A DNA stretch of 31,670 nt, taken from positions 1-31,670 of the IMG/VR virus record IMGVR_UViG_649989948_000010; one strand, written 5' to 3'. The notes under the pieces are model-generated. The model was not told the origin of the DNA and searched no databases. It was given only the letters and a program-made list of their open reading frames with translations. Positions 2,335-28,993 of this stretch are shown here, one piece after another. Numbering within the stretch: position 1 is the first letter of the stretch; every line of letters starts with the position of its first letter. Source of the DNA: a virus. Its lineage: Duplodnaviria; Heunggongvirae; Uroviricota; Caudoviricetes. The position numbers were made by a program, and so were the translations under genes.

Positions 2335-3897
2335 ATGAAAATGACAAGTATTCAACAACGTGCAGAGCTTCATCGTCAAATCTGGCAAATTGCTAACGAT
2401 GTCAGGGGTTCGGTCGATGGATGGGATTTTAAGCAATACGTTCTGGGCGCACTTTTCTACCGTTTTATCAGCGAAAATTTTTCCAGCTATATTGAAGCCG
2501 GTGATGACAGTATCTGTTATGCGAAACTGGATGACAGCGTAATTACTGATGACATTAAAGACGATGCCATCAAAACCAAAGGTTACTTCATCTACCCAAG
2601 TCAGCTTTTCTGCAACGTAGCTGCGAAAGCAAATACCAATGACAGACTGAATGCAGATTTAAACAGCATCTTCGTTGCTATCGAAAGTTCTGCTTACGGT
2701 TACCCTTCAGAAGCTGACATCAAAGGTTTGTTTGCTGATTTCGATACCACCAGTAACCGCCTGGGTAACACCGTTAAGGATAAAAATGCCCGCCTGGCTG
2801 CGGTTCTGAAAGGGGTTGAAGGGTTAAAGCTTGGCGACTTTAACGAACATCAGATTGACCTGTTCGGCGATGCCTATGAGTTCCTGATTTCTAACTATGC
2901 CGCGAATGCTGGTAAGTCAGGCGGCGAGTTCTTTACACCGCAGCACGTCTCTAAGCTGATTGCACAACTGGCTATGCACGGGCAGACCCACGTTAACAAA
3001 ATCTACGACCCGGCCGCAGGTTCCGGTTCGCTGTTGTTGCAGGCGAAAAAGCAGTTTGATGACCATATCATCGAAGAAGGCTTTTTTGGTCAGGAGATCA
3101 ACCATACGACCTATAACCTGGCGCGTATGAACATGTTTTTGCACAACATCAACTACGACAAGTTTGATATCAAGTTGGGCAATACGCTGACTGAGCCGCA
3201 CTTCAGAGATGAAAAACCGTTTGATGCCATCGTTTCTAACCCGCCGTATTCGGTGAAATGGATTGGCAGCGATGACCCGACGCTGATTAACGATGAACGT
3301 TTTGCCCCGGCTGGCGTTCTGGCCCCCAAATCCAAAGCTGACTTTGCGTTTGTATTACATGCGCTGAACTATCTTTCGGCCAAAGGTCGCGCTGCGATTG
3401 TCTGCTTCCCAGGCATTTTTTACCGTGGCGGCGCGGAGCAGAAAATCCGTCAGTATCTGGTCGACAATAACTATGTCGAAACCGTGATTTCACTGGCACC
3501 GAATCTGTTCTTTGGCACCACTATTGCCGTCAATATTCTGGTGCTGTCTAAACATAAAACGGATACCAAAGTTCAGTTTATTGATGCCAGCGAACTGTTC
3601 AAAAAAGAGACTAACAACAACATTCTGACCGATGCTCATATCGAACAGATTATGCAGGTATTTGCCAGCAAGGAAGATGTTGCTCATCTGGCGAAATCTG
3701 TTGCGTTTGAGACTGTTGTCGCGAATGACTATAACCTGTCGGTGAGCAGCTATGTGGAAGCGAAAGATACTCGCGAAATTATCGATATCGCTGAGCTGAA
3801 TGCTGAGCTGAAAACCACGGTCAGCAAAATCGACCAGTTGCGTAAAGATATTGATGCGATTGTTGCTGAGATTGAAGGTAGCGAGGTACAGGCATGA
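2335..3897 (+). CDS. hsdM: Type I restriction-modification methyltransferase subunit HsdM (type IC-like)
   Basis: 520 aa; N6-adenine MTase motifs ([12 protein letters not shown]); N-terminus matches the EcoR124-family HsdM as I recall it; 4-bp ATGA overlap with hsdS. Confidence 0.93.
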
Positions 3898-5141
3898 GCG
3901 AGCTGAGTTATCTGGAAAAACTGCTGGATGGGGCTGAGGTTGAGTGGGTAGCATTAAATAAATTAGCAACTTTTTTAAAAGGGAAGTCTTTACCTAAAGA
4001 AAAAATAACTCCAGATGGCAATAGATATTGTATTCATTACGGTGAGCTTTTCACTCATTATGGTCCCATAATTGACAAAGTATGCTCAAAAACAAACCAA
4101 GCAATCAATGAGTCAATTCTATCTGAAAAAAATGATGTTCTAATGCCAACGTCAGACGTTACACCAAGAGGTTTGGCTACAGCTAGTTGCATTCAAGAAA
4201 GTGGCGTTATTTTAGGCGGCGATATTTTGATTATTAGATGCTCTGGTGTTGATGGTAGATATCTAAGTAATTTCATAATAAATAACAAAAAAAAGATATT
4301 GCAAATGGTTAAAGGTTCTACTGTTTATCATTTGTATGCTAAAGATATAGGTAAATTACTTATCCCCATCCCTTGCCCCAACAACCCGGAAAAGTCGCTG
4401 GCTATCCAGTCTGAAATCGTCAGGATTCTGGATAAATTTACTGCACTTACCGCTGAGCTTACCGCTGAGCTTAGCATGCGTAAAAAACAATACAACTACT
4501 ATCGCGACCAGTTGTTGAGTTTTAAAGAGGGTGAGGTTGAGTGGAAAGCTTTGGGGGAAATTGGTGAAGTTCGTATGTGTAAACGAATCCTAAAATCACA
4601 AACATCTTCTGAGGGAGAGATTCCATTTTATAAAATTGGGACATTTGGTAAGGAACCCGATTCCTATATATCTAGAAAACTATTTAATGAATTTAAAGAA
4701 AAATATAGTTATCCTAAAGTTGGCGAAGTATTGATTTCTGCCAGTGGGACCATCGGCAGGACTGTTATATTTGATGGTAGGGAATCATATTTCCAGGATA
4801 GCAATATTGTCTGGATTGAAAATAATGAAAAAATAGTTTTAAATAAATATTTATTCTATTTCTATAAAATAGCAAAATGGGGAATATCTGAAGGTGGAAC
4901 TATTAAAAGACTTTATAATGATAACTTAAGAAAACTTATGATACCAGTACCATTTCCTGATTCTCCTGAAAGATCGCTAGTTGAACAACAAAAAATAGTG
5001 AAATTACTGGATAAATTTGATGCTTTGACCAATTCCATCACCGAAGGTCTTCCGCGTGAAATCGAGTTGCGCCAGAAACAATACGAGTACTATCGTGATT
5101 TACTGTTCAGTTTTCCCAAACCTGAAACTATCAGTAACTAA
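3894..5141 (+). CDS. hsdS: Type I restriction-modification specificity subunit HsdS
   Basis: 415 aa; conserved central ([16 protein letters not shown]) and C-terminal ([37 protein letters not shown]) regions flanking two AT-rich variable domains. Confidence 0.9.
4448..4471 (+). repeat. Tandem 12-bp repeat (TACCGCTGAGCT x2) encoding TAEL-TAEL in the HsdS central spacer
   Basis: Direct tandem duplication read in the sequence; repeat number in this spacer sets recognition-site spacing in type IC systems. Confidence 0.85.
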
Positions 5142-5262
5142 TTGACCATTGCTACCGACCGGATCACCTTAACATCCGGTCTATATAGAGACTATTTTTT
5201 ACACGCCGGAAGTCGCCCTTAAAGCCCTTCCGGCCCTTGCCAGACGGCACAAAGGATGCGCT

Positions 5263-8200
5263 ATGACTCATCAGACACACACCATTGCTGAATCCAATAA
5301 CTTTATCGTTCTTGATAAGTACATCAAAGCCGAGCAAACAGGCGACAGCTACCAGAGCGAATCGGACCTGGAACGTGAACTGATTCAGGATCTGCGGAAT
5401 CAGGGCTATGAATTTATTTCCGTAAAATCTCAGTCGGCGATGCTGGCCAACGTTCGGGAACAGCTTCAGAACCTCAATGGTGTGGTGTTTAATGACAGCG
5501 AATGGCGGCGTTTCACGGAGCAGTATCTGGATAACCCGAGCGATGGCATCCTGGATAAGACCCGTAAAATCCATATCGACTATATTTGCGACTTTATTTT
5601 TGATGACGAGCGTCTTGAGAACATCTATTTGATAGATAAAAAGAATCTCATGCGCAACAAGGTGCAGATTATCCAGCAGTTTGAACAGACGGGTTCTCAT
5701 GCTAACCGTTATGACGTCACGATCCTGGTTAATGGCTTACCGCTGGTACAAATCGAACTGAAAAAGCGCGGCGTGGCGATTCGTGAGGCCTTTAACCAGA
5801 TACATCGTTACAGCAAAGAGAGTTTTAACAGCGAAAATTCTCTGTTTAAGTATCTGCAACTGTTTGTCATTTCCAACGGCACCGATACCCGTTACTTTGC
5901 CAACACGACAAAGCGCGATAAAAACAGTTTTGACTTCACCATGAATTGGGCGAAATCAGACAACACGCTGATTAAAGACCTCAAAGACTTTACCGCCACC
6001 TTTTTCCAGAAACATACCCTGCTTAATGTCTTAGTGAACTACAGCGTATTCGATGTTAGCCAAACGCTACTGGTGATGCGACCGTACCAGATTGCCGCCA
6101 CTGAGCGCATTCTGTGGAAAATTAAGAGTTCCTTTACAGCGAAGAACTGGTCAAAACCGGAAAGCGGTGGGTATATCTGGCACACTACCGGTTCAGGTAA
6201 AACCCTCACCAGCTTTAAAGCCGCGCGTCTGGCAACAGAGCTGGACTTTATTGATAAAGTCTTCTTCGTGGTCGACAGGAAAGACCTCGATTACCAGACC
6301 ATGAATGAATATAAGCGTTTTTCGCCAGACAGCGTCAACGGCTCGGAAAATACCGCAGGTCTTAAACGCAATCTGGATAAGGACGATAACAAAATTATCG
6401 TCACCACTATTCAGAAACTTAATAACCTGATGAAAGCAGAAAGCGACCTGCCTGTATACAATCAGCAAGTGGTGTTTATATTTGATGAATGTCACCGCAG
6501 CCAGTTTGGAGAAGCGCAGAAAAACCTGAAGAAGAAATTCAAACGCTATTATCAGTTTGGTTTTACCGGCACACCTATTTTCCCGGAAAACGCCTTAGGC
6601 TCAGAAACGACCGCCAGCGTATTTGGTCGTGAATTGCATTCGTATGTAATTACCGATGCGATTCGTGATGAAAAAGTGCTCAAATTCAAGGTGGACTACA
6701 ACGATGTGCGGCCACAGTTTAAATCTTTAGAGACAGAAACCGACGAGAAAAAACTGAGTGCGGCTGAAAATCAGCAGGCATTTCTTCATCCCATGCGTAT
6801 ACAGGAAATTACGCAATATATTCTGAATAACTTCCGCCAGAAGACCCACCGTACTTTCCCAGGTTCCAAAGGCTTTAATGCCATGCTGGCAGTGAGTAGC
6901 GTGGATGCCGCGAAAGCCTATTACGCGACGTTTAAACGGTTACAAGAGGAAGCAGCTAATAAATCGGCTACCTATAAACCGCTGCGTGTTGCAACAATCT
7001 TCTCCTTTGCCGCCAATGAAGAACAAAATGCCATTGGTGAAATTTCCGATGAAACTTTTGATACCAGCGCAATGGACAGCAGTGCTAAAGAGTTTCTTGA
7101 CGCTGCAATTCGTGAGTATAACAGCTATTTTAAAACTAACTTCAGCACCGACAGTAACGGTTTTCAGAACTACTATCGTGATTTAGCCCAACGGGTTAAA
7201 AATCAGGATATCGATCTGTTAATTGTCGTTGGGATGTTTTTAACCGGCTTCGACGCTCCAACATTGAACACGCTATTCGTCGATAAAAACTTGCGTTTTC
7301 ACGGCCTGATGCAGGCATTCTCCCGTACCAACCGCATTTATGACGCTACTAAAACCTTCGGTAACATCGTCACTTTTCGGGATCTGGAACGCTCAACCAT
7401 TGATGCCATAACGCTGTTTGGTGATAAAAATACTAAAAATGTGGTGTTAGAAAAGAGTTATGCTGAGTATATGGAAGGCTTTACAGATGCTGCCACTGGT
7501 GAAGCTAAACGCGGCTTTATGGCAGTAGTTTCAGAACTGGAACAACGGTTCCCTGACCCTGCCAGTATTGAAAGTGAAAAAGAGAAGAAAGACTTCGTAA
7601 AACTGTTTGGTGAATACCTGCGTGCCGAGAACATCCTGCAAAACTATGATGAATTTGCCACGCTGAAAGCCCTGCAACAAATCGATCTTAGCGATCCTGT
7701 TGCGGTAGAAAAATTCAAAGCAGAACATTATGTGGATGATGAAAAGTTCGCTGAATTGCAAACAATTCGTCTCCCTGCTGAACGCAAGATTCAGGATTAT
7801 CGTTCTGCCTATAACGATATTCGCGACTGGCAGCGCCGTGAGAAAGAAGCTGAGAAAAAAGAGAAATCAACCACTGACTGGGATGACGTAGTTTTTGAGG
7901 TCGATTTGCTGAAGTCTCAGGAAATAAACCTGGATTATATCCTTGGACTGATTTTCGAACACAACAGACAAAATAAAGGCAAGGGCGAAATGATCGAAGA
8001 GGTCAAACGCTTAATTCGTTCAAGCCTGGGGAACCGGGCGAAAGAGGGCCTGGTGGTCGATTTTATTCAGCAAACGAACCTGGATGATTTACCAGACAAA
8101 GCCAGTATCATTGAGGCATTCTTTACGTTTGCTCAACGCGAACAGCAACGTGAAGCAGAAGCATTGATAAAAGAAGAAAATCTCAATGAAGAGGCGGCGA

Positions 8201-8379
8201 AACGCTATATTCGCACGTCTTTAAAACGCGAATACGCCACCGAAAATGGCACAGAATTAAACGAGACATTACCAAAACTTAGTCCGTTAAACCCGCAATA
8301 TAAAACGAAAAAACAGACCGTTTTCCAGAAAATCGTCACGTTTATTGAAAAGTTCAAAGGAGTAGGTGGGCAGATATAG
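5263..8379 (+). CDS. hsdR: Type I restriction endonuclease subunit HsdR (type IC-like)
   Basis: 1038 aa; SF2 helicase motifs (TGSGKT, DECHRS), type I HsdR architecture; AGGA RBS. Confidence 0.93.
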
Positions 8380-8437
8380 TGTATTAATCTGAACCAGATC
8401 TGGCAGACATCTGTGCAAATTGCAGATAGCTGTCAGA

Positions 8438-8914
8438 TCAAACCATCGTAGGGATGTTTGTATCCACTTTGAACTCAGGTACACCAACGAACTCTTTAAC
8501 CTTCATCTGGTAGCCGGTTCTGTCAGTTTTGATGACTTCCTGTTTGCCCTCTATAAACTGCTCACGCCACTCGTCGCGACGGGAAGCTGGCATGATCAGC
8601 AAAACGTTAGTCATATCCGTGACCTTCCTCCAGTACTCGGCCCAAATATTCTGTTTCACCCATTCCAGATCGACTTTATCCAGCCAAGCTCGATTCAAAC
8701 GTGAGCGTTCTTCATCTGGTCGATGGTTCAGTTGCAGCAGGCGATTAATCATGTTGTGGCGTTCGTCGCCATAAACGAAGTCGTGAACCTGATACATGAA
8801 GGCGATCTCTTTCTCGCACTCGGCTACGATTTCGTGGATGACGTTCATTTCCTGACGATAATCGATAGCAGTGTTTGAGTTGGTATCGTCGATGATGGAA
8901 AGAGCTGTATTCAT
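8438..8914 (-). CDS. Hypothetical protein (158 aa), first gene after hsdR, convergent with it
   Basis: ORF with ATG start; contains an R-x5-H motif (RLLQLNH) that could be HEPN-like; no family recognised. Confidence 0.45.
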   Translation of the reverse strand: MNTALSIIDDTNSNTAIDYRQEMNVIHEIVAECEKEIAFMYQVHDFVYGDERHNMINRLLQLNHRPDEERSRLNRAWLDKVDLEWVKQNIWAEYWRKVTDMTNVLLIMPASRRDEWREQFIEGKQEVIKTDRTGYQMKVKEFVGVPEFKVDTNIPTMV

Positions 8915-9017
8915 AATTGCACCATTAAGAAAAGATTTGTTTAATAGTGCAATTATTTCAAAAATGAAAAGGTGCTAAATAGAAATTAACAGGCAATCCT
9001 TTAAATAAAGGTATTTG

Positions 9018-9632
9018 CTAATCATACTTTGAGGTATTTATAACCAGGATTTTGTTTGTATAAATCTTCTTAATATCCCATGTGACATTACCGGAATACC
9101 ATTGACCGTTATATACTTGGTTTCCAGTTGCACCGGTCATAGTTACATAGACAGGTCTGTCGTAATCGGTTCGTCTATAGTTATAAACCCCAACCATAGC
9201 AGGCATTACTGCGCACGGATACCCCATATCTATTGTAAATTGTGGGTCAGTAATAGTGATAAGTTTTGCATCAAGGGGCATCATCTCACCGTGATACACC
9301 ATTGCGCCTGCGCTGTTATACATGGCAATGCCATAGCCAGAATGTGGTAACACCATATCAGAAAAAGCATAAACTGTTATTGTTCCGGGGCTACCATTTA
9401 CCTGATGCAATCTGAGAGCATTGTATCCGTTACTATGTTCATGAATAAACATCATGTTCGCCTTATTGCTGCTTTTTATGAAGAAAAAGCATGATTTGTT
9501 TGATGGGATTGATGTTTGAAAAACAGAACCTTTAGATGTAGACATTGTCCCTTTATTAATCAGATTTTGCGGAGTAAATTCAGGACTCATCCACAAACTT
9601 CCATCTGATTGAGTAATTGACATCCCGAACAT
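9018..9632 (-). CDS. Hypothetical N/G/Y/T-rich protein (about 204 aa)
   Basis: AT-rich ORF; likely start MFGMSITQ with GGGGA RBS, 2 nt after the stop of the upstream 93-aa ORF. Confidence 0.4.
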   Translation of the reverse strand: MFGMSITQSDGSLWMSPEFTPQNLINKGTMSTSKGSVFQTSIPSNKSCFFFIKSSNKANMMFIHEHSNGYNALRLHQVNGSPGTITVYAFSDMVLPHSGYGIAMYNSAGAMVYHGEMMPLDAKLITITDPQFTIDMGYPCAVMPAMVGVYNYRRTDYDRPVYVTMTGATGNQVYNGQWYSGNVTWDIKKIYTNKILVINTSKYD

Positions 9633-9634
9633 AA

Positions 9635-9916
9635 TTATCCCCAGTATGTGTATATGTAAGAACCAAGCCCCGTATATAAATTTGACCAACTAACCGTATT
9701 TCCATTAATAGTAACATTTGGAACAGGTAAATTGATGTAGTTGTCGTTGTTAAGAGGCATTAATGACCACACGGCATGTAGTGATTTACCCGGTGGCGGA
9801 TTAGAGTACGTCTTAGAGCCTGATGACGCCGTAAATCGATCAAGAAAAAAAATAGGTGTAAGGAAGCCAGTAACGTTAATTCCTTTATTGTTGTAAATCC
9901 CTGTACCGTATGCCAT
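9635..9916 (-). CDS. Hypothetical N/G/Y-rich protein (93 aa)
   Basis: ATG start with AAGGGTGA RBS; abuts the downstream ORF. Confidence 0.4.
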   Translation of the reverse strand: MAYGTGIYNNKGINVTGFLTPIFFLDRFTASSGSKTYSNPPPGKSLHAVWSLMPLNNDNYINLPVPNVTINGNTVSWSNLYTGLGSYIYTYWG

Positions 9917-9970
9917 TTTTCACCCTTGTTTTTATCAACACAATATGGCCGATCATGCGGCCATATCAGA

Positions 9971-10540
9971 TCAATTAGAGCTTTGAAAGACTTTGTGTGG
10001 TTGTGTTGCGAGGTTATGTCGATGGCTTAACTCACGCATCATGTCTTCAAGGCGACTCTTTGTGTCGTCGAGTTGGTCGGCCATTGCTCCCAAAAGCTGA
10101 CGAACGGCCATCGGATCATCGCTGTTTAGTGATGGCATTTTATAACCCGCCTGAGAAGACATAAGATTGAACGCAGACATCAACATCGTTAGAGAGGATT
10201 TAAGCCCAGCAATTTCACGATCTTTGCTGGCAATAATCGCCTCACTCTTGTTAGTGTCATCAGTTCGTTGAGTCTCGCTCACCATATCCAAAGTCGCCTG
10301 CAACTTATCAGCGCGCTCTTTTTCAGCAAGATAATGAACACCGAAATGATGTGCTAAAGCTACAACCTGAGTTGGCTCTTCAAAGGTGGACTCAAAATTA
10401 AGTGCTGTAACCACTCTCTCAAATATGGAAACGTCTTCTATTCCTCGAAGAATGGCTAACATTTTGACCAGTTCATTAGCATCCATTTCTTCGAATAAGG
10501 CGTTTTGTTCATCAGCTATCGCTTTGCATTTCTTGCACAT
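9971..10540 (-). CDS. Hypothetical protein (189 aa), predicted helical
   Basis: ATG start preceded by the AGGAAAAACAC leader shared with the TerB-like and nrdB genes; palindrome AAACAAGTTGTTT 25 nt upstream. Confidence 0.5.
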   Translation of the reverse strand: MCKKCKAIADEQNALFEEMDANELVKMLAILRGIEDVSIFERVVTALNFESTFEEPTQVVALAHHFGVHYLAEKERADKLQATLDMVSETQRTDDTNKSEAIIASKDREIAGLKSSLTMLMSAFNLMSSQAGYKMPSLNSDDPMAVRQLLGAMADQLDDTKSRLEDMMRELSHRHNLATQPHKVFQSSN

Positions 10541-10558
10541 GTGTTTTTCCTAATGCTT

Positions 10559-10571
10559 AAACAAGTTGTTT
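10559..10571 (-). promoter_or_regulatory. Palindromic motif AAACAA-G-TTGTTT, 25 nt upstream of the 189-aa gene
   Basis: Perfect 6-bp inverted repeat with 1-nt spacer; same motif recurs at 11288-11300 and 22293-22305. Confidence 0.4.
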
Positions 10572-10655
10572 TCTTATTGGCTTTATTGTGATGTGGCATA
10601 AAAGGGGAGCAAGCTAAACGTAAAGGTGCAAACTCTCTATTTCGGTCAACGAAAC

Positions 10656-10677
10656 ACAAGGGCCATTTGGCCCTTGT
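10656..10677 (-). terminator. Stem-loop immediately after the 52-aa ORF
   Basis: 9-bp inverted repeat ACAAGGGCC/GGCCCTTGT with 4-nt loop, followed on the minus strand by GTTTCGTT. Confidence 0.4.
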
Positions 10678-10679
10678 CA

Positions 10680-10838
10680 TTAACACGTTGCTTTACGGAC
10701 TAGCGGATAAGCGAAGTAGATCGCCAGACCAATGAGGACGCCATCAGAAATGACAGACATCATCTTTCCCGTAAAATCCACCAACACCGCTATCACCAGA
10801 AGAGCAATGACGGTCACAAGCCGGAATCTCTCAAGCAT
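10680..10838 (-). CDS. Small hydrophobic protein (52 aa, two predicted TM segments), translationally coupled to the TerB-like gene
   Basis: Hand-translated: MLERFRLVTVIALLVIAVLVDFTGKMMSVISDGVLIGLAIYFAYPLVRKATC; its ATG overlaps the TerB-like TAA (TAATG); absent from the ORF track (under 60 aa). Confidence 0.35.
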   Translation of the reverse strand: MLERFRLVTVIALLVIAVLVDFTGKMMSVISDGVLIGLAIYFAYPLVRKATC

Positions 10839-11263
10839 TAGAGATAAGCATCCAGTGACAACTGAAGCGCCTGGGCGATCTTTTTCAGCGCCTGCTCTTC
10901 TGGTTCATCAATGCCGTCCTGGTCGGCAATATCAAGGCACAGACACAGTACATCTACTGCATCATCAGTCCCGGCCACATCCGCCAGCTCACGTAAAGCC
11001 TGGGCATTAGCACGGCGCGGTGAGGCTTCGTATTGAGCGCGGATATTGGCGCTCATCTGGGCAATCTCACCAGCAAAAGGAGAAAATGCAGGCAGAGCTG
11101 CAATTGTTTTCTCAAGAATGGAAATTTCTTTTGCATCGCATGTACCGTTGGCATAGGAGATCATGTACCCGCCCCACACGGTGGCTTCAACCGCATCACG
11201 GTTCTCCATTTTTTTGACTTCGATAACAGCTTTACGAGTTTTCTTTTTGAAGAAACCTAACAT
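10838..11263 (-). CDS. TerB-like domain protein (141 aa)
   Basis: Pattern resembles tellurite-resistance TerB (N-terminal MxxFF; acidic C-terminal LCLCLDIADQDGIDEPEEQALKKIAQALQLS). Confidence 0.55.
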   Translation of the reverse strand: MLGFFKKKTRKAVIEVKKMENRDAVEATVWGGYMISYANGTCDAKEISILEKTIAALPAFSPFAGEIAQMSANIRAQYEASPRRANAQALRELADVAGTDDAVDVLCLCLDIADQDGIDEPEEQALKKIAQALQLSLDAYL

Positions 11264-11287
11264 GTGTTTTCCTTTTGCTATTTGTCA

Positions 11288-11300
11288 AAACAAATTGTTT
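11288..11300 (-). promoter_or_regulatory. Palindromic motif AAACAA-A-TTGTTT, 31 nt upstream of the TerB-like gene
   Basis: Second copy of the shared palindrome, same position relative to the start codon and GTGTTTTCC leader. Confidence 0.4.
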
Positions 11301-26482: not shown

Positions 26483-26908
26483 ATGGAATTACAGGACTGG
26501 CGAAAAGAACCTCGTAAAAACTATTCGAATGAATTCAAACTTCGTATGGTGGAACTGGCATCACAACCTGGAGCTTGTGTTGCACAGATTGCACGTGAAA
26601 ATGGCGTCAATGATAATGTTATTTTCAAATGGCTCAGGCTCTGGCAGAACGAAGGGCGTGTTTCACGGCGTCTTCCGGTAACGACCTCTTCTGACACTGG
26701 CGTTGAATTATTACCTGTAGAAATAACGCCGGATGAGCAGAAAGAACCTGTGGCGGCCATTGCGCCGTCTTTATCCACTTCCACTCAGACCAGAGTCAGT
26801 GCCAGTTCCTGCAAGGTGGAATTCCGTCACGGTAACATGACGCTGGAAAATCCATCGCCAGAGCTGCTCACAGTGTTGATCCGTGAACTGACCGGGAGGG
26901 GAAGATGA
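26483..26908 (+). CDS. IS66-family accessory protein (orfA)
   Basis: 141 aa HTH-like protein; 4-bp overlap with orfB. Confidence 0.85.
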   Translation: MELQDWRKEPRKNYSNEFKLRMVELASQPGACVAQIARENGVNDNVIFKWLRLWQNEGRVSRRLPVTTSSDTGVELLPVEITPDEQKEPVAAIAPSLSTSTQTRVSASSCKVEFRHGNMTLENPSPELLTVLIRELTGRGR

Positions 26909-27255
26909 TCTCACTCCCATCAGGTACCCGTATCTGGCTCGTTGCCGGCGTTACCGATATGCGTAAATCCTTCAACGGACTGGGAGAACAGGTACAACAT
27001 GTGCTGAATGATAATCCCTTCTCCGGTCACCTGTTTATCTTCCGTGGCCGACGGGGTGACACCGTCAAAATTCTTTGGGCTGATGCTGATGGTCTGTGCC
27101 TGTTCACCAAACGCCTGGAGGAAGGCCAGTTTATCTGGCCTGCGGTACGTGACGGCAAGGTATCCATTACCCGCTCGCAACTGGCAATGCTCCTCGATAA
27201 GCTGGACTGGCGTCAGCCAAAAACATCCAGCCGTAACTCACTGACAATGTTGTAA
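26905..27255 (+). CDS. IS66-family accessory protein (orfB)
   Basis: 116 aa; conserved IS66 orfB pattern (LWADADGLCLFTKRLEEGQF). Confidence 0.85.
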   Translation: MISLPSGTRIWLVAGVTDMRKSFNGLGEQVQHVLNDNPFSGHLFIFRGRRGDTVKILWADADGLCLFTKRLEEGQFIWPAVRDGKVSITRSQLAMLLDKLDWRQPKTSSRNSLTML

Positions 27256-27285
27256 AAAACTCCTGACCGCATTATAAAAACGGTC

Positions 27286-28899
27286 ATGAGTCAGAAATAC
27301 CTCATTCGCATCGCAGAGCTGGAAAGGTTGCTCTCTGAGCAGGCTGAAGCCCTCCGTCAGAAAGACCAGCAACTGAGTCTGGTTGAAGAGACGGAAGCCT
27401 TCCTGCGCTCTGCACTGACACGTGCCGAAGAAAAGATCGAAGAAGATGAACGGGAAATAGAACATCTGCGGGCTCAGATAGAAAAACTGCGCCGGATGCT
27501 GTTCGGTACCCGTTCTGAAAAACTGCGTCGTGAAGTTGAACTGGCTGAGGCTCTGCTGAAACAACGTGAACAGGACAGCGATCGTTACAGTGGGCGGGAA
27601 GACGATCCTCAGGTTCCCCGCCAGTTGCGACAGTCGCGCCATCGTCGTCCGTTACCGGCACACCTTCCCCGTGAAATACACCGCCTGGAGCCAGAAGAAA
27701 GCTGTTGCCCGGAGTGTGGCGGTAAGCTGGATTATCTGGGGGAAGTCAGCGCTGAACAGCTGGAACTGGTGAGCAGTGCCCTGAAAGTGATCCGCACAGA
27801 ACGGGTAAAAAAAGCCTGTACAAAATGTGACTGTATTGTTGAAGCACCGGCGCCGTCTCGCCCGATAGAGCGTGGTATCGCGGGCCCCGGATTACTTGCC
27901 CGCGTGTTAACGGGAAAATACTGCGAACATCTGCCACTGTATCGTCAGAGTGAAATCTTTGCCCGCCAGGGTGTCGAACTGAGCCGGGCCTTACTCTCCA
28001 ACTGGGTTGACGCGTGCTGCCAGTTAATGACACCGGTGAATGATGCCCTGTACCGTTATGTAATGAACACCCGCAAGATTCACACTGATGACACACCGGT
28101 AAAGGTACTGGCACCGGGTCAGAAAAAGGCGAAAACAGGGCGTATCTGGACGTATGTCCGGGATGATCGCAATGTGGGTTCGTCATCTCCTCCAGCGGTC
28201 TGGTTCGCGTACTCGCCGAACCGGCAGGGGAAACACCCGGAGCAACACCTCCGCCCCTTCCGGGGTATCCTGCAGGCGGATGCGTTCACAGGTTACGACA
28301 GGTTGTTCAGTGCAGAACGTGAAGGTGGTGCACTGACAGAAGTTGCGTGCTGGGCCCATGCCCGGCGAAAAATCCACGATGTATACATCAGCAGCAAAAG
28401 TGCGACGGCAGAAGAAGCACTGAAGCGAATCAGTGAACTGTACGCCATCGAGGATGAAATACGGGGATTACCGGAGTCAGAGCGTCTTGCCGTCAGGCAG
28501 CAGCGAAGCAAAGTGTTACTGACGTCGCTGCATGAATGGATGGTGGAGAAGAATGGTACGCTGTCGAAAAAATCCAGACTGGGCGAAGCGTTCAGCTATG
28601 TACTGAATCAGTGGGATGCCCTCTGTTATTACAGTGATGACGGTCTGGCGGAGGCGGATAATAATGCTGCGGAAAGAGCGCTTCGTGCAGTCTGTCTCGG
28701 AAAGAAAAACTTTATGTTCTTTGGCAGCGATCACGGCGGCGAGCGTGGAGCACTGTTGTACGGGCTGATCGGCACCTGCCGTCTGAACGGTATCGATCCG
28801 GAAGCGTATCTGCGCCATATCCTGAGCGTACTGCCGGAATGGCCTTCCAACCGAGTTGATGAACTCCTGCCATGGAACGTAGTACTCACCAATAAATAA
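27286..28899 (+). CDS. IS66-family transposase (orfC)
   Basis: 537 aa; coiled-coil N-terminus, CxxC zinc-finger-like region, conserved catalytic core. Confidence 0.85.
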   Translation: MSQKYLIRIAELERLLSEQAEALRQKDQQLSLVEETEAFLRSALTRAEEKIEEDEREIEHLRAQIEKLRRMLFGTRSEKLRREVELAEALLKQREQDSDRYSGREDDPQVPRQLRQSRHRRPLPAHLPREIHRLEPEESCCPECGGKLDYLGEVSAEQLELVSSALKVIRTERVKKACTKCDCIVEAPAPSRPIERGIAGPGLLARVLTGKYCEHLPLYRQSEIFARQGVELSRALLSNWVDACCQLMTPVNDALYRYVMNTRKIHTDDTPVKVLAPGQKKAKTGRIWTYVRDDRNVGSSSPPAVWFAYSPNRQGKHPEQHLRPFRGILQADAFTGYDRLFSAEREGGALTEVACWAHARRKIHDVYISSKSATAEEALKRISELYAIEDEIRGLPESERLAVRQQRSKVLLTSLHEWMVEKNGTLSKKSRLGEAFSYVLNQWDALCYYSDDGLAEADNNAAERALRAVCLGKKNFMFFGSDHGGERGALLYGLIGTCRLNGIDPEAYLRHILSVLPEWPSNRVDELLPWNVVLTNK

Positions 28900-28993
28900 G
28901 CGTCAATACGGTGCTCCGTTGACGCTTACTTCAGGTGCATCCGGTCCCCCTTGTTTTTGATACAAAACACGCCTCACAGACGGGTAATTTTGC

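What the first reader, a model, noticed from the sequence alone, without database searches (positions are those of the whole stretch)
9018..9916. Two adjacent AT-rich genes encoding N/G/Y/T-rich proteins of unknown function
A 93-aa ORF and a ~204-aa ORF are separated by 2 nt, each with its own RBS. I first suspected one frameshifted gene, but the second has a clean ATG and RBS right after the first stop. The composition suggests beta-rich proteins, and the low GC implies separate acquisition. I recognise no family; sitting between hsdR and the phage module, they are candidates for a phage-host interaction or defence function.
Basis: seen in the sequence. Interest (0 to 1): 0.45.

Follow-up and report, generated by a model that had tools for sequence, protein, structure and literature searches.

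The report
Displaced two-gene phage receptor-binding module
The two small genes are most likely the two halves of the protein that caps the tail tip of this E. coli phage-plasmid and recognises its outer-membrane receptor; this is a known but mislabelled phage module that here sits far from the tail genes, not a defence system.

Summary
On the minus strand there is a 93-aa ORF (orfA, 9916-9635) and a 204-aa ORF (orfB, 9632-9018). They are 2 nt apart, each has an SD-like sequence, and their GC is 39% against 46% for the window.

The window is an SSU5/Cyrano-like E. coli phage-plasmid. The pair belongs to PHROG 557 plus PHROG 425. These are the pair annotated 'outer membrane protein' / 'membrane associated protein' directly after the central tail fibre gene J in T1 (gp32/gp31), SSU5, JenP2 and Stx phages. 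Neither protein has a signal peptide or a TM segment.

- **Split protein.** Single-chain ~316-aa homologues are colinear with A followed by B.
- **One pair per element.** This element has one pair, and a sister plasmid examined over the relevant regions also shows one. The sister carries its pair plus cor behind the tail fibre and has an identical J tip. This lineage lacks that pair and instead carries a 1,040-bp insert holding A/B about 50 kb from the tail genes.
- **Selection and expression.** dN/dS is about 0.03-0.06, and the genes are not among those reported as expressed in the lysogen.

Caveats: the receptor is unknown, and deleting the Sp5 homologues did not abolish infection. Verdict: a new member of a known kind.

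The parts
9635..9916 (-). orfA, 93 aa. The small subunit, corresponding to the N-terminal domain of single-chain homologues. Carries one copy of the motif [YFW]G-x7-G-x8-9-P at residue 3.
   Evidence: ORF. PHROG 557, E 6e-29. Aligns to residues 2-80 of the 316-aa fused homologues by hhalign, probability 93.5%, E 2e-7. 28% identical to T1 gp32. E 3e-6 to SSU5_023. pN 0.15 against saturated pS 0.79 versus JenP2. Motif.
9018..9632 (-). orfB, 204 aa. The large all-beta subunit and the candidate receptor-binding body. Carries the same motif at residues 2 and 100, and the conserved C-terminus ..VINTSKYD.
9638..9642 (-). SD-like GGGGA for orfB, inside the last codons of orfA. The layout suggests translational coupling (stop TAA, then TT, then ATG).
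   Evidence: Read directly from the sequence.
9921..9927 (-). SD-like AAGGGTG for orfA. It also marks the upstream end of the homology shared with JenP2 and Sp5.
   Evidence: Sequence. The blastn match to JenP2 ends at 9923 and the match to Sp5 ends at 9924.
8973..10012 (.). 1,040-bp inserted or replaced segment that carries the pair. In sister phage-plasmids that lack the pair at this locus it corresponds to about 121 bp. It also rewrites the last ~14 codons of the upstream 189-aa gene.
   Evidence: Homology to E. coli plasmid p4_0.2 ends at window 8972 and resumes at 10013 (L012 40506 -> 40628). Klebsiella phage pJN2-26 likewise has the DUF4942 gene directly followed by the 193-aa gene.
9943..9966 (-). 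Perfect 9-bp inverted repeat (ATATGGCCG / CGGCCATAT, 6-nt loop) between the upstream 189-aa gene and orfA, inside the insert. Its role is unknown; it could be a weak terminator, an RNA structure or an operator.
   Evidence: Read from the sequence. The terminator scan did not call it, because no T-run follows.

Best explanation
orfA and orfB encode the two chains of a split tail-tip receptor-binding protein (RBP) of this SSU5/Cyrano-like siphovirus phage-plasmid.

**Proposed mechanism (inferred).** They are made during lytic growth and probably translated as a coupled pair. They form a heterodimer that caps the C-terminal tip of the trimeric central tail fibre J, which ends in ...NVLRVRIGRL and carries no receptor-binding domain of its own. 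The all-beta body of orfB then binds an outer-membrane protein of Escherichia/Shigella, giving irreversible adsorption and triggering DNA ejection. This would be analogous to T5 pb5 on FhuA or the Oekolampad RBP on LptD.

**A further inference.** The three copies of the hairpin motif [YFW]G-x7-G-x8-9-P (one in A, two in B) are the low-confidence parts of the monomer models. I propose they are the elements that dock onto the three J chains.

**What is unusual.** The cassette is not behind the tail genes. It sits in a 1-kb insert about 50 kb away, between the remnant of a DUF4942 methylase gene and a 189-aa ORF next to the TciA/TciB-like genes.

**Shown here:** family membership, the split/fused relationship, the fold match, one pair per element, an identical J tip in elements carrying different pairs, purifying selection, and the absence of a membrane-protein signature.

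**Inferred:** virion incorporation in this element, docking on J, receptor binding, and late expression. The receptor itself is unknown.
For: 1. **Family.** PHROG 557 and PHROG 425. The same small-then-large pair lies directly after the J gene in T1 (gp32/gp31, then cor), SSU5 (023/024, then cor), JenP2 (antisense between J and the next tail gene) and Sp5 (after the needle gene).

2. **Published link to receptor specificity.** This is the 'bona fide RBP locus' whose alleles track receptor specificity in small siphoviruses (PMC8594841; bioRxiv 10.64898/2026.04.02.716166). Matusiak et al. argued on modelling grounds that exactly these two misannotated proteins cap the spike tip (PMC12309495).

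3. **Split protein.** 114 clusters of orfB relatives were found; about 10 are 310-325 aa long. orfA maps to their residues 2-80 and orfB to residues 101-310.

5. **One pair per element.** A six-frame HMM scan of the whole 113-kb plasmid that is 100% identical over window 8380-11300 finds only this pair, no cor, and nothing next to J, the tail fibre or the holin. Cyrano likewise has J, tail fibre, then holin, with no pair behind them. The sister E. coli plasmid p4_0.2 has A'/B'/cor behind the tail fibre and nothing at this locus, and the last 140 aa of its J are 100% identical to Cyrano's.

6. **Host-restricted distribution.** The window-type orfA occurs in 126 plasmids: 117 Escherichia, 6 Shigella, 2 Klebsiella. 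SSU5-type B' occurs in Enterobacter, Salmonella and Citrobacter, and in 73 Escherichia plasmids at about 74% identity.

7. **Purifying selection**, including within the phage-plasmid lineage.

8. **Not reported as lysogen-expressed.** CYRAN_88 and CYRAN_89 are not among the 13 Cyrano genes listed at 5-fold or more above background in LF82 lysogens (PMC9928086).

9. **Virion evidence for a homologue.** The 61%-identical phi24B homologue gp54 was detected in the virion proteome, and extra density was seen at the needle tip (bioRxiv 10.64898/2026.04.10.717836).
Against: - **Sp5 deletions.** Single in-frame deletions of the Sp5 homologues ORF72 (92 aa) and ORF73 (205 aa) were made; the primers are in the supplement. 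Neither is among the nine genes required for plaque formation or lysogenisation on K-12, nor among the two with reduced infectivity (PMC5155283). In that podovirus the pair is therefore dispensable under laboratory conditions.
- **No direct evidence for this clade.** No member of this sequence clade has a demonstrated receptor or a solved structure. The similarity to the Oekolampad RBP is at fold level only: hhalign probability 0.1% and no PDB sequence hit.
- **phi24B gp55.** The orfA homologue was not detected in virions.
- **Unusual position.** Here the pair is not in the tail operon, has no recognisable promoter of its own and has no adjacent superinfection-exclusion gene.
- **Models.** They rest on shallow alignments of 10-14 sequences.
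Confidence: 0.66

Rival explanations
1. The proteins are virion-associated but accessory. The pair decorates the J tip and improves or broadens adsorption, for example through a second receptor or on particular hosts. The primary determinant of infection would be the large lateral tail fibre or J itself.
For: The Sp5 ORF72 and ORF73 deletions still gave plaques and lysogens, whereas the tail fibre ORF67 and the needle ORF71 were essential. phi24B gp54 was found in virions only at low abundance. Cyrano has a 1,341-aa P1 S-like tail fibre.
Against: In small siphoviruses the alleles at this locus match the terminal receptor 'without exception'. The J tip of this element has no receptor-binding domain of its own and is identical to that of a sister element that keeps a pair in the tail operon. 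Strong purifying selection and strict retention of one pair per element.
Confidence: 0.17
2. The proteins are assembly factors. orfA, or both proteins, would act as chaperones for the tail tip or tail fibre and would not remain in the virion.
For: Matusiak et al. raise a structural or chaperone-like role. The orfA homologue gp55 was not detected in phi24B virions. Small genes downstream of fibre genes are often chaperones (general knowledge).
Against: Single-chain homologues carry the A-like domain covalently. In the fold comparison, adding this domain raises the match to a mature, receptor-bound RBP from 141 to 211 aligned residues. gp54 is in the virion. Here the pair lies about 50 kb from any fibre gene.
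Confidence: 0.08
3. Lysogenic-conversion, defence or superinfection-exclusion function. The pair would be expressed from the plasmid prophage to block or sense incoming phages, or to alter the cell surface, as the database names 'outer membrane protein' and 'membrane associated protein' suggest.
For: The location is in an accessory region, next to a type I R-M system and the TciA/TciB-like genes. GC is low and there is clear evidence of horizontal acquisition. PHROG files family 425 under 'moron'.
Against: There is no signal peptide, lipobox or TM segment; the maximum Kyte-Doolittle 19-residue window is 0.94 for orfA and 1.10 for orfB. No PADLOC, Pfam or NCBIfam hit. The Cyrano orthologues are not among the genes reported as expressed in LF82 lysogens. 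Homologues occur in strictly lytic phages inside tail modules. The membrane annotation has been argued to be wrong.
Confidence: 0.05
4. Functionless hitch-hiking cargo: a recombination scar from an encounter with a JenP-like or Stx-like phage.
For: The insert has sharp boundaries and foreign GC.
Against: Both ORFs appear intact across the listed hits among 126 plasmids (125 with at least 80% coverage). dN/dS is about 0.03 within the lineage. The canonical pair is missing from the tail operon precisely in the elements that carry this one.
Confidence: 0.03

Closest known systems
T1 gp32/gp31 pair (PHROG 557 + PHROG 425), which the T1 record annotates as similar to N15 gp22/gp23. This is the FhuA-associated allele of the 'bona fide RBP locus' downstream of gpJ.
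   Same: The layout is the same: two genes, small then large, same strand, abutting. The family is the same: A~gp32 at 28% identity (E 3e-4) and B~gp31 at 24% (E 2e-5), and both window proteins hit the same two PHROG families. The N-terminal M-x-YG...G...P motif and the C-terminal ..AYD/..KYD are shared.
   Different: Sequence identity is low, so the receptor is probably different. In T1 the pair directly follows J and is followed by the FhuA-blocking lipoprotein gene cor. Here it lies about 50 kb from J and has no cor.
Stx-phage pair: Sp5 ORF72/ORF73, equivalent to phi24B gp55/gp54 (Traversvirus, short-tailed).
   Same: This is the closest studied relative (orfB 61% identical), with the same lengths (92/205 aa). 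gp54 was found in virions and is proposed, alone or with gp55, to cap the needle and bind BamA.
   Different: Those phages are podoviruses with a needle, not siphoviruses with a J fibre. There the pair follows the needle gene and precedes a lom-like gene. The single deletions were not lethal for Sp5. BamA binding by gp54 has not been demonstrated.
Nonagvirus JenP1/JenP2/BRET pair (gp22/gp21 of JenP2).
   Same: This is the nearest sequence relative outside phage-plasmids: 76% nt identity over exactly the two ORFs, orfB 82% aa, and a 2-nt gap between the genes.
   Different: These are lytic 60-kb phages, and the pair sits antisense immediately after J, which is the canonical RBP locus. The receptor of these phages was not found in the literature I could search.
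Oekolampad RBP (bas18_0025, PDB 9rpt chain C) and Rtp44: the LptD-binding tail-tip proteins of small siphoviruses.
   Different: There is no detectable sequence similarity. It is a single 321-aa chain. Its small partner gene encodes a periplasmic superinfection-exclusion lipoprotein, not an orfA-like domain. There is therefore no basis for assigning LptD as the receptor here.
SSU5_023/SSU5_024/cor: the pair native to the SSU5 phage-plasmid group.
   Same: It belongs to the same phage group and the same protein families (A E 3e-6, B E 3e-9), and is associated with the same J tip (87-100% identical).
   Different: It is only about 29% identical, sits at the end of the tail operon and is followed by cor. 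Among the elements examined it was never found together with the window-type pair.

Membership tests
Two-gene tail-tip module, PHROG 557 + PHROG 425 (T1 gp32/gp31 type) | Significant sequence match of the small protein to PHROG 557 and of the large protein to PHROG 425. | tested here: met
   E 6.1e-29 with full-length coverage for orfA, and E 2.2e-72 with full-length coverage for orfB. Pairwise matches to T1 gp32/gp31 and to SSU5_023/024.
Two-gene tail-tip module, PHROG 557 + PHROG 425 (T1 gp32/gp31 type) | Small gene immediately upstream of the large gene, on the same strand, abutting or overlapping. | tested here: met
   2-nt gap, with the SD of orfB inside orfA. Small-then-large, abutting order is also seen in JenP2 (2-nt gap), T1 (the genes share one base, position 28912), Sp5 and SSU5.
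Two-gene tail-tip module, PHROG 557 + PHROG 425 (T1 gp32/gp31 type) | [quoted passage not shown] | tested here: not met
   In Cyrano and in the plasmid that is 100% identical over window 8380-11300, J is followed by the tail fibre and then the holin. The pair lies about 50 kb away in a 1,040-bp insert. This is a positional feature. It lowers confidence in function but does not affect homology.
Two-gene tail-tip module, PHROG 557 + PHROG 425 (T1 gp32/gp31 type) | The cognate central fibre ends in the conserved tip (...LRVxIGRL) without its own receptor-binding domain. | tested here: met
   The Cyrano J C-terminus is 87% identical to SSU5 J, 37.5% to JenP2 J and 35% to T1 gp33. All end in the same motif, and the Sp5 needle ends ...LAVRIGRLR. 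J is outside the window, so this was tested on Cyrano (97% nt identity over 8467-11300). The plasmid that is 100% identical over 8380-11300 carries a J gene of the same length, whose sequence I did not compare.
Two-gene tail-tip module, PHROG 557 + PHROG 425 (T1 gp32/gp31 type) | The proteins are present at the tail tip of the virion and bind the terminal receptor. | not testable with these tools
   There is only indirect literature evidence: phi24B gp54 in the virion proteome and extra tip density, and allele-receptor correlation. The Sp5 deletions argue against essentiality.
Oekolampad/Rtp44 LptD-binding RBP family | Sequence similarity. The family is defined in the literature at more than 30% identity over the full length. 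| tested here: not met
   hhalign of the fused-homologue profile against bas18_0025 gives probability 0.1%. No PDB sequence hit with the single proteins or the profiles.
Oekolampad/Rtp44 LptD-binding RBP family | Same three-dimensional fold. | tested here: met
Oekolampad/Rtp44 LptD-binding RBP family | Single chain of about 310-320 aa, paired with an Rtp45-like superinfection-exclusion lipoprotein. | tested here: not met
   Here the protein is split into 93 + 204 aa. orfA has no lipobox or signal peptide. The small Oekolampad gene encodes MKTLIMICAVLLSGC..., a lipoprotein.
Outer-membrane / membrane-associated protein (the database annotation) | Signal peptide, lipobox, TM helix or beta-barrel signature. 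| tested here: not met
   There is no N-terminal hydrophobic segment, and the maximum Kyte-Doolittle 19-residue window is 0.94 for orfA and 1.10 for orfB. Low membrane affinity was computed for homologues in PMC12309495.
Known anti-phage defence systems (PADLOC) / curated families (Pfam, NCBIfam) | Match to any model. | tested here: not met
   No hit for either protein at E <= 1.

The most novel reading that the evidence does not exclude
The tail-tip receptor binder is a free-standing, trans-acting cassette of exactly two ORFs that moves between unrelated virion types: lytic Nonagvirus siphoviruses, short-tailed Stx phages and SSU5-like phage-plasmids. It can be parked anywhere in a genome, because one conserved fibre tip (...LRVRIGRL) accepts different binders. 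Three repeats of a hairpin motif, split over the two chains, would adapt a monomeric binder to the three-fold fibre. On this reading the FhuA-, BtuB-, LptD- and (putatively) BamA-associated 'unrelated' RBP families would all be diverged or split versions of one fold.
Probability: 0.4. Interest if true: 0.55.

Novelty: new member of a known kind. Interest (0 to 1): 0.36.

Why it matters
**Annotation and host-range prediction.** SSU5-like phage-plasmids are common in clinical E. coli, and the group is reported to carry resistance genes. Their host range depends on the receptor binder. In this lineage the binder is not where annotation pipelines and receptor-prediction tools look. orfA is often not annotated at all, and orfB is labelled 'hypothetical' or 'membrane associated'.

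**Engineering and surveillance.** Recognising the pair as the likely receptor-binding module gives a concrete target for predicting or changing the host range of these elements.

**Modular exchange.** It also documents that the same fibre tip is paired with two very different binders in sister plasmids. That is direct comparative support for modular exchange of RBPs.

**Limits.** It does not reveal a new kind of system.

Tried and rejected
- **Curated libraries.** Pfam, NCBIfam and PADLOC gave nothing for either protein. Sequence searches of the PDB with the single proteins and with profiles also gave nothing.
- **Internal duplication.** BLASTP of orfA against orfB found only a weak shared N-terminal motif. 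I followed this up as a pattern.
- **Model of the A+B complex.** I folded a natural fused homologue instead.
- **Discarded alignment.** A combined MAFFT alignment of the fused, A and B families smeared the short rows across the reference, so I dropped it.
- **BFVD fold search.** It returned only uncharacterised phage proteins.
- **Promoter and terminator scan.** It found nothing convincing immediately upstream of orfA.
- **Receptor assignment.** This failed. The relatives are linked to different receptors: T1 to FhuA; a Warwickvirus (Arnold) to BtuB, while the orfB homologues at about 40% are in other Warwickvirus genomes, so the link is at genus level only; and phi24B/Sp5 to BamA at 61%. For the nearest relatives, JenP1/JenP2/BRET, I found no published receptor.
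- **Sequence homology to the Oekolampad RBP.** hhalign rejected it.
- **Programmed frameshift joining A and B.** I considered and rejected this. There is no slippery sequence at ...TGGGGATAATTATG..., orfB has its own start and SD, and the split is conserved.
- **Finding the Oekolampad record.** Three accession guesses (MZ501092, MZ501093 and MZ501094) returned other phages before MZ501095 proved to be Oekolampad.
Full report
**1. What is in the sequence**

The finding is accurate, but the genes are on the minus strand. orfA runs 9916->9635 (ATG, 93 aa, stop TAA). Two nucleotides later orfB runs 9632->9018 (ATG, 204 aa); the mechanical ORF list extends it to an upstream TTG. The two genes are in different frames.

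An AAGGGTG lies 5 nt before the orfA start. A GGGGA lies 5 nt before the orfB start, inside the last codons of orfA, a layout typical of translational coupling.

GC is 0.39 for both genes, against 0.46 for the window and 0.44-0.49 for the neighbours. orfA is rich in N, G, T, S and Y; orfB is less so.

Neither protein has a signal peptide, a lipobox or a hydrophobic segment (maximum 19-residue Kyte-Doolittle mean 0.94 and 1.10).

**2. Where the window comes from**

The region is 97% identical to Escherichia phage Cyrano, which is pLF82, an SSU5-like siphovirus phage-plasmid. It is 100% identical to many ~110-kb E. coli plasmids.

In this window a type I R-M system (hsdM 2335-3897, hsdS 3894-5141, hsdR 5263-8379) has replaced part of the region. 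It leaves a 158-aa N-terminal remnant (8438-8914) of a DUF4942 methylase gene that is full length (561 aa) in Cyrano.

**3. Family**

Pfam, NCBIfam, PADLOC and PDB sequence searches find nothing.

PHROGs does. orfA matches phrog_557 ('outer membrane protein', 6e-29) and orfB matches phrog_425 ('membrane associated protein', 2e-72).

tblastn finds orfB relatives in 329 phage records:
- Cyrano-like elements, 99%;
- Nonagvirus JenP1/JenP2/BRET, 82%;
- short-tailed Stx phages (Sp5/VT2-Sakai and relatives), 61%;
- Warwickvirus-type Drexlerviridae, about 40%;
- SSU5 itself, 29%.

In every annotated relative I opened, the pair (small gene first) lies directly after the central tail fibre or needle gene:
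- JenP2 gp22/gp21, antisense between J and the next tail gene;
- SSU5_023/024, followed by cor;
- Sp5 orf63/orf64, after the 422-aa needle gene;
- T1 gp32/gp31, after gp33 and followed by cor. The T1 record annotates them as similar to N15 gp22/gp23 and to HK022 proteins.

Pairwise, orfA~gp32 is 28% identical (E 3e-4) and orfB~gp31 is 24% (E 2e-5).

[quoted passage not shown] Its alleles match terminal receptor specificity in small siphoviruses (PMC8594841). [quoted passage not shown]

Matusiak et al. (PMC12309495) examined exactly these two misannotated proteins in Dhillonvirus JLBYU60 (FhuA), phi24B (BamA) and a Pseudomonas phage. They computed low membrane affinity and modelled the larger 'hand-like' protein capping the spike tip and contacting the receptor.

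**4. A split protein**

A profile search over 1.8 billion representative proteins gave 114 clusters of orfB relatives. Most are 200-230 aa, but about ten are 310-325 aa, with the orfB match starting near residue 105.

Profile-profile alignment places the orfA family on residues 2-80 of these long proteins (probability 93.5%, E 2e-7). It places the orfB family on residues 101-310 (99.5%, E 3e-22).

So A followed by B is colinear with a single-chain homologue. This is a fission or fusion relationship that ties the two ORFs to one function.

**5. Fold**

The AlphaFold2 model of orfB (14 sequences; pLDDT 79.7, pTM 0.74) is all-beta.

At sequence level there is no relationship (hhalign probability 0.1%). 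This is fold-level kinship only, and it gives no reason to assign LptD as the receptor.

Oekolampad's RBP is also encoded antisense just after J, 2 nt behind a small gene. That small gene is a lipoprotein superinfection-exclusion factor, not an orfA-like domain.

**6. The comparative argument inside the phage-plasmid group**

SSU5 has its own pair plus cor at the end of the tail operon. Cyrano does not: J (CYRAN_20) is followed by the tail fibre (CYRAN_21) and then the holin.

I downloaded the whole 113-kb plasmid pEcoFMU073332c, which is 100% identical to window 8380-11300, and scanned all six frames. I used HMMs of the A, B and fused families and the T1 and SSU5 proteins. The only pair is the one in the finding, and there is no cor.

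Conversely, the sister E. coli plasmid p4_0.2 has A', B' and cor after its tail fibre. At the syntenic accessory locus its DUF4942 gene is followed directly by the 188-aa gene. I scanned only positions 30216-42776 and 50001-100000 of p4_0.2, not the whole plasmid. Klebsiella phage pJN2-26 also lacks the pair at that locus.

The last 140 residues of J are 100% identical between p4_0.2 and Cyrano. All these fibres, and the Sp5 needle, end in ...LRVxIGRL.

So the same fibre tip, which has no receptor-binding domain of its own, is accompanied by one pair in every element examined. That pair is either the SSU5 type in the tail operon or the window type in the accessory region.

Boundaries: homology to p4_0.2 stops at window 8972 and resumes at 10013, so a 1,040-bp segment replaces 121 bp. 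Homology to JenP2 (76% nt) and to Sp5 (66% nt) covers 9018-9923/4, which is exactly the two ORFs and the SD.

Distribution fits a host-range determinant:
- the window-type orfA is in 126 plasmids: 117 Escherichia, 6 Shigella, 2 Klebsiella;
- SSU5-type B' is in Enterobacter, Salmonella and Citrobacter, and at about 74% identity in 73 Escherichia plasmids.

**7. Selection and expression**

Nei-Gojobori estimates:
- orfB against JenP2: pS 0.67, pN 0.096;
- orfA against JenP2: pS 0.79, pN 0.15;
- orfB against Cyrano: pS 0.135, pN 0.004.

Both genes are therefore maintained as proteins, including within the plasmid lineage.

In LF82 transcriptomes, 13 Cyrano genes are expressed at 5-fold or more above the prophage background. 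CYRAN_88 and CYRAN_89 are not among them (PMC9928086). That argues against a moron or defence role, which would need expression in the lysogen.

Cyrano does make virions on ciprofloxacin induction.

**8. Experimental evidence on homologues, for and against**

For: a cryo-EM and proteomics preprint on phi24B detected gp54 (204 aa, the orfB homologue) in virions at low abundance. It saw extra asymmetric density at the needle tip, consistent in size with a gp54-gp55 heterodimer. It proposes these proteins bind BamA. gp55 itself was not detected (10.64898/2026.04.10.717836).

Against: in the systematic deletion study of Sp5, ORF72 (92 aa) and ORF73 (205 aa) were deleted individually (primers in the supplement). 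They are not among the nine essential genes, nor among the two with reduced infectivity (PMC5155283). I mapped the paper's ORF numbers as AP000363 orfN + 9, using gene lengths.

In that podovirus on K-12 the pair is therefore dispensable. This is the main reason my confidence is not higher.

**9. Mechanism proposed**

orfA and orfB are translated together during lytic growth and form a heterodimer equivalent to the single-chain RBP. This heterodimer caps the trimeric J tip and binds an outer-membrane protein of Escherichia/Shigella.

A motif [YFW]G-x7-G-x8-9-P occurs once in orfA (residue 3) and twice in orfB (residues 2 and 100). It recurs in JenP2, T1, p4_0.2 and some fused homologues.

These stretches are the low-confidence parts of both models: orfB 1-4, 16-23, 93-102 and 113-119; fused 1-21, 97-102 and 112-115. 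In the Oekolampad cryo-EM structure the phage-proximal part is also disordered.

I infer, without a test, that three hairpins adapt one binder to the three chains of the fibre.

The receptor cannot be named. Relatives are linked to FhuA (T1), to BtuB (the Warwickvirus Arnold; a genus-level link to the ~40% orfB homologues in other Warwickvirus genomes) and to BamA (phi24B).

**10. Verdict**

The ORFs are real and functional. They are a new member of a known, poorly annotated kind: the two-gene tail-tip receptor-binding module of T1-like, Nonagvirus, Stx and SSU5-like phages.

The features that go beyond the literature I read are:
- the displacement of the module out of the tail operon in this lineage;
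- the one-pair-per-element pattern with an identical fibre tip;
- the split/fused relationship;
- the fold link to the solved LptD binder.

The defence interpretation is not supported.

Noticed in passing
window 2335-8379 (+) and 8438-8914 (-): A complete type I R-M system is inserted here: hsdM 2335-3897, hsdS 3894-5141, and hsdR 5263-8379 with an EcoR124-type C-terminus. Cyrano has Ea22/Eaa-like genes in this position. The neighbouring DUF4942 'DNA methylase' gene is cut down to a 158-aa N-terminal remnant; it is 561 aa in Cyrano, p4_0.2 and pJN2-26.
   Followed up: partly
window 26483-28899 (+): An IS66-family element lies among minus-strand replication and nucleotide-metabolism genes, at higher GC (0.50-0.56). 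It comprises an HTH_Tnp_1 ORF, TnpB_IS66 and a 537-aa DDE_Tnp_IS66 transposase. In plasmid pEcoFMU073332c the corresponding position lies inside an intact AAA-ATPase gene, so the IS probably interrupts that gene here.
   Followed up: partly
window 9635-9916 (orfA); plasmid records: orfA is often absent from the PLSDB gene tables of plasmids that carry it ('none' under the match), while orfB is listed as a hypothetical protein. Those tables are incomplete, so orfA may still be annotated in the original records. In AP000363 (VT2-Sakai) the homologue is annotated 17 codons too short (75 aa against 92 aa).
   Followed up: partly
L003 9043-9609 (SSU5_024) and L011 5932-6567 (p4_0.2): The annotated start of the SSU5-type large subunit (MSPSLTP...) is probably about 17 codons too far downstream. 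The open frame upstream reads MYGSKIYRSDGKVWMSP..., which restores the conserved N-terminal motif and makes the gene abut or overlap the small gene.
   Followed up: partly
window 9018-9916 compared with L001 (Cyrano) 9552-10450: orfA is identical at the nucleotide level between the window and Cyrano. orfB differs at 13.5% of synonymous sites but only 0.4% of non-synonymous sites. This suggests a recombination breakpoint at or near the A/B junction within the lineage.
   Followed up: no
window 9943-9966: A perfect 9-bp inverted repeat (ATATGGCCG-N6-CGGCCATAT) lies between the 189-aa gene and orfA, inside the inserted segment. No T-run follows it, and its function is unknown.
   Followed up: no
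window 10680-11263 (-) and 9971-10540 (-): P1 TciA-like (TerB domain, 141 aa) and TciB-like (DUF3927, 52 aa) genes lie here, together with a conserved 189-aa coiled-coil-looking ORF (phrog_5508, function unknown). These flank the insert in all SSU5-like elements I examined. The insert replaces the last ~14 codons of the 189-aa gene.
   Followed up: no
L016 10655-11844 (Oekolampad) compared with the A/B family: hhalign finds no similarity, yet the solved LptD binder begins MGAGILIDYNDG (G4...G12, the same spacing as the family motif) and ends ...LLVIPNMY (compare ...ILVINTSKYD). This hints that the RBP families called 'unrelated' in the literature may share docking elements or ancestry.
   Followed up: partly
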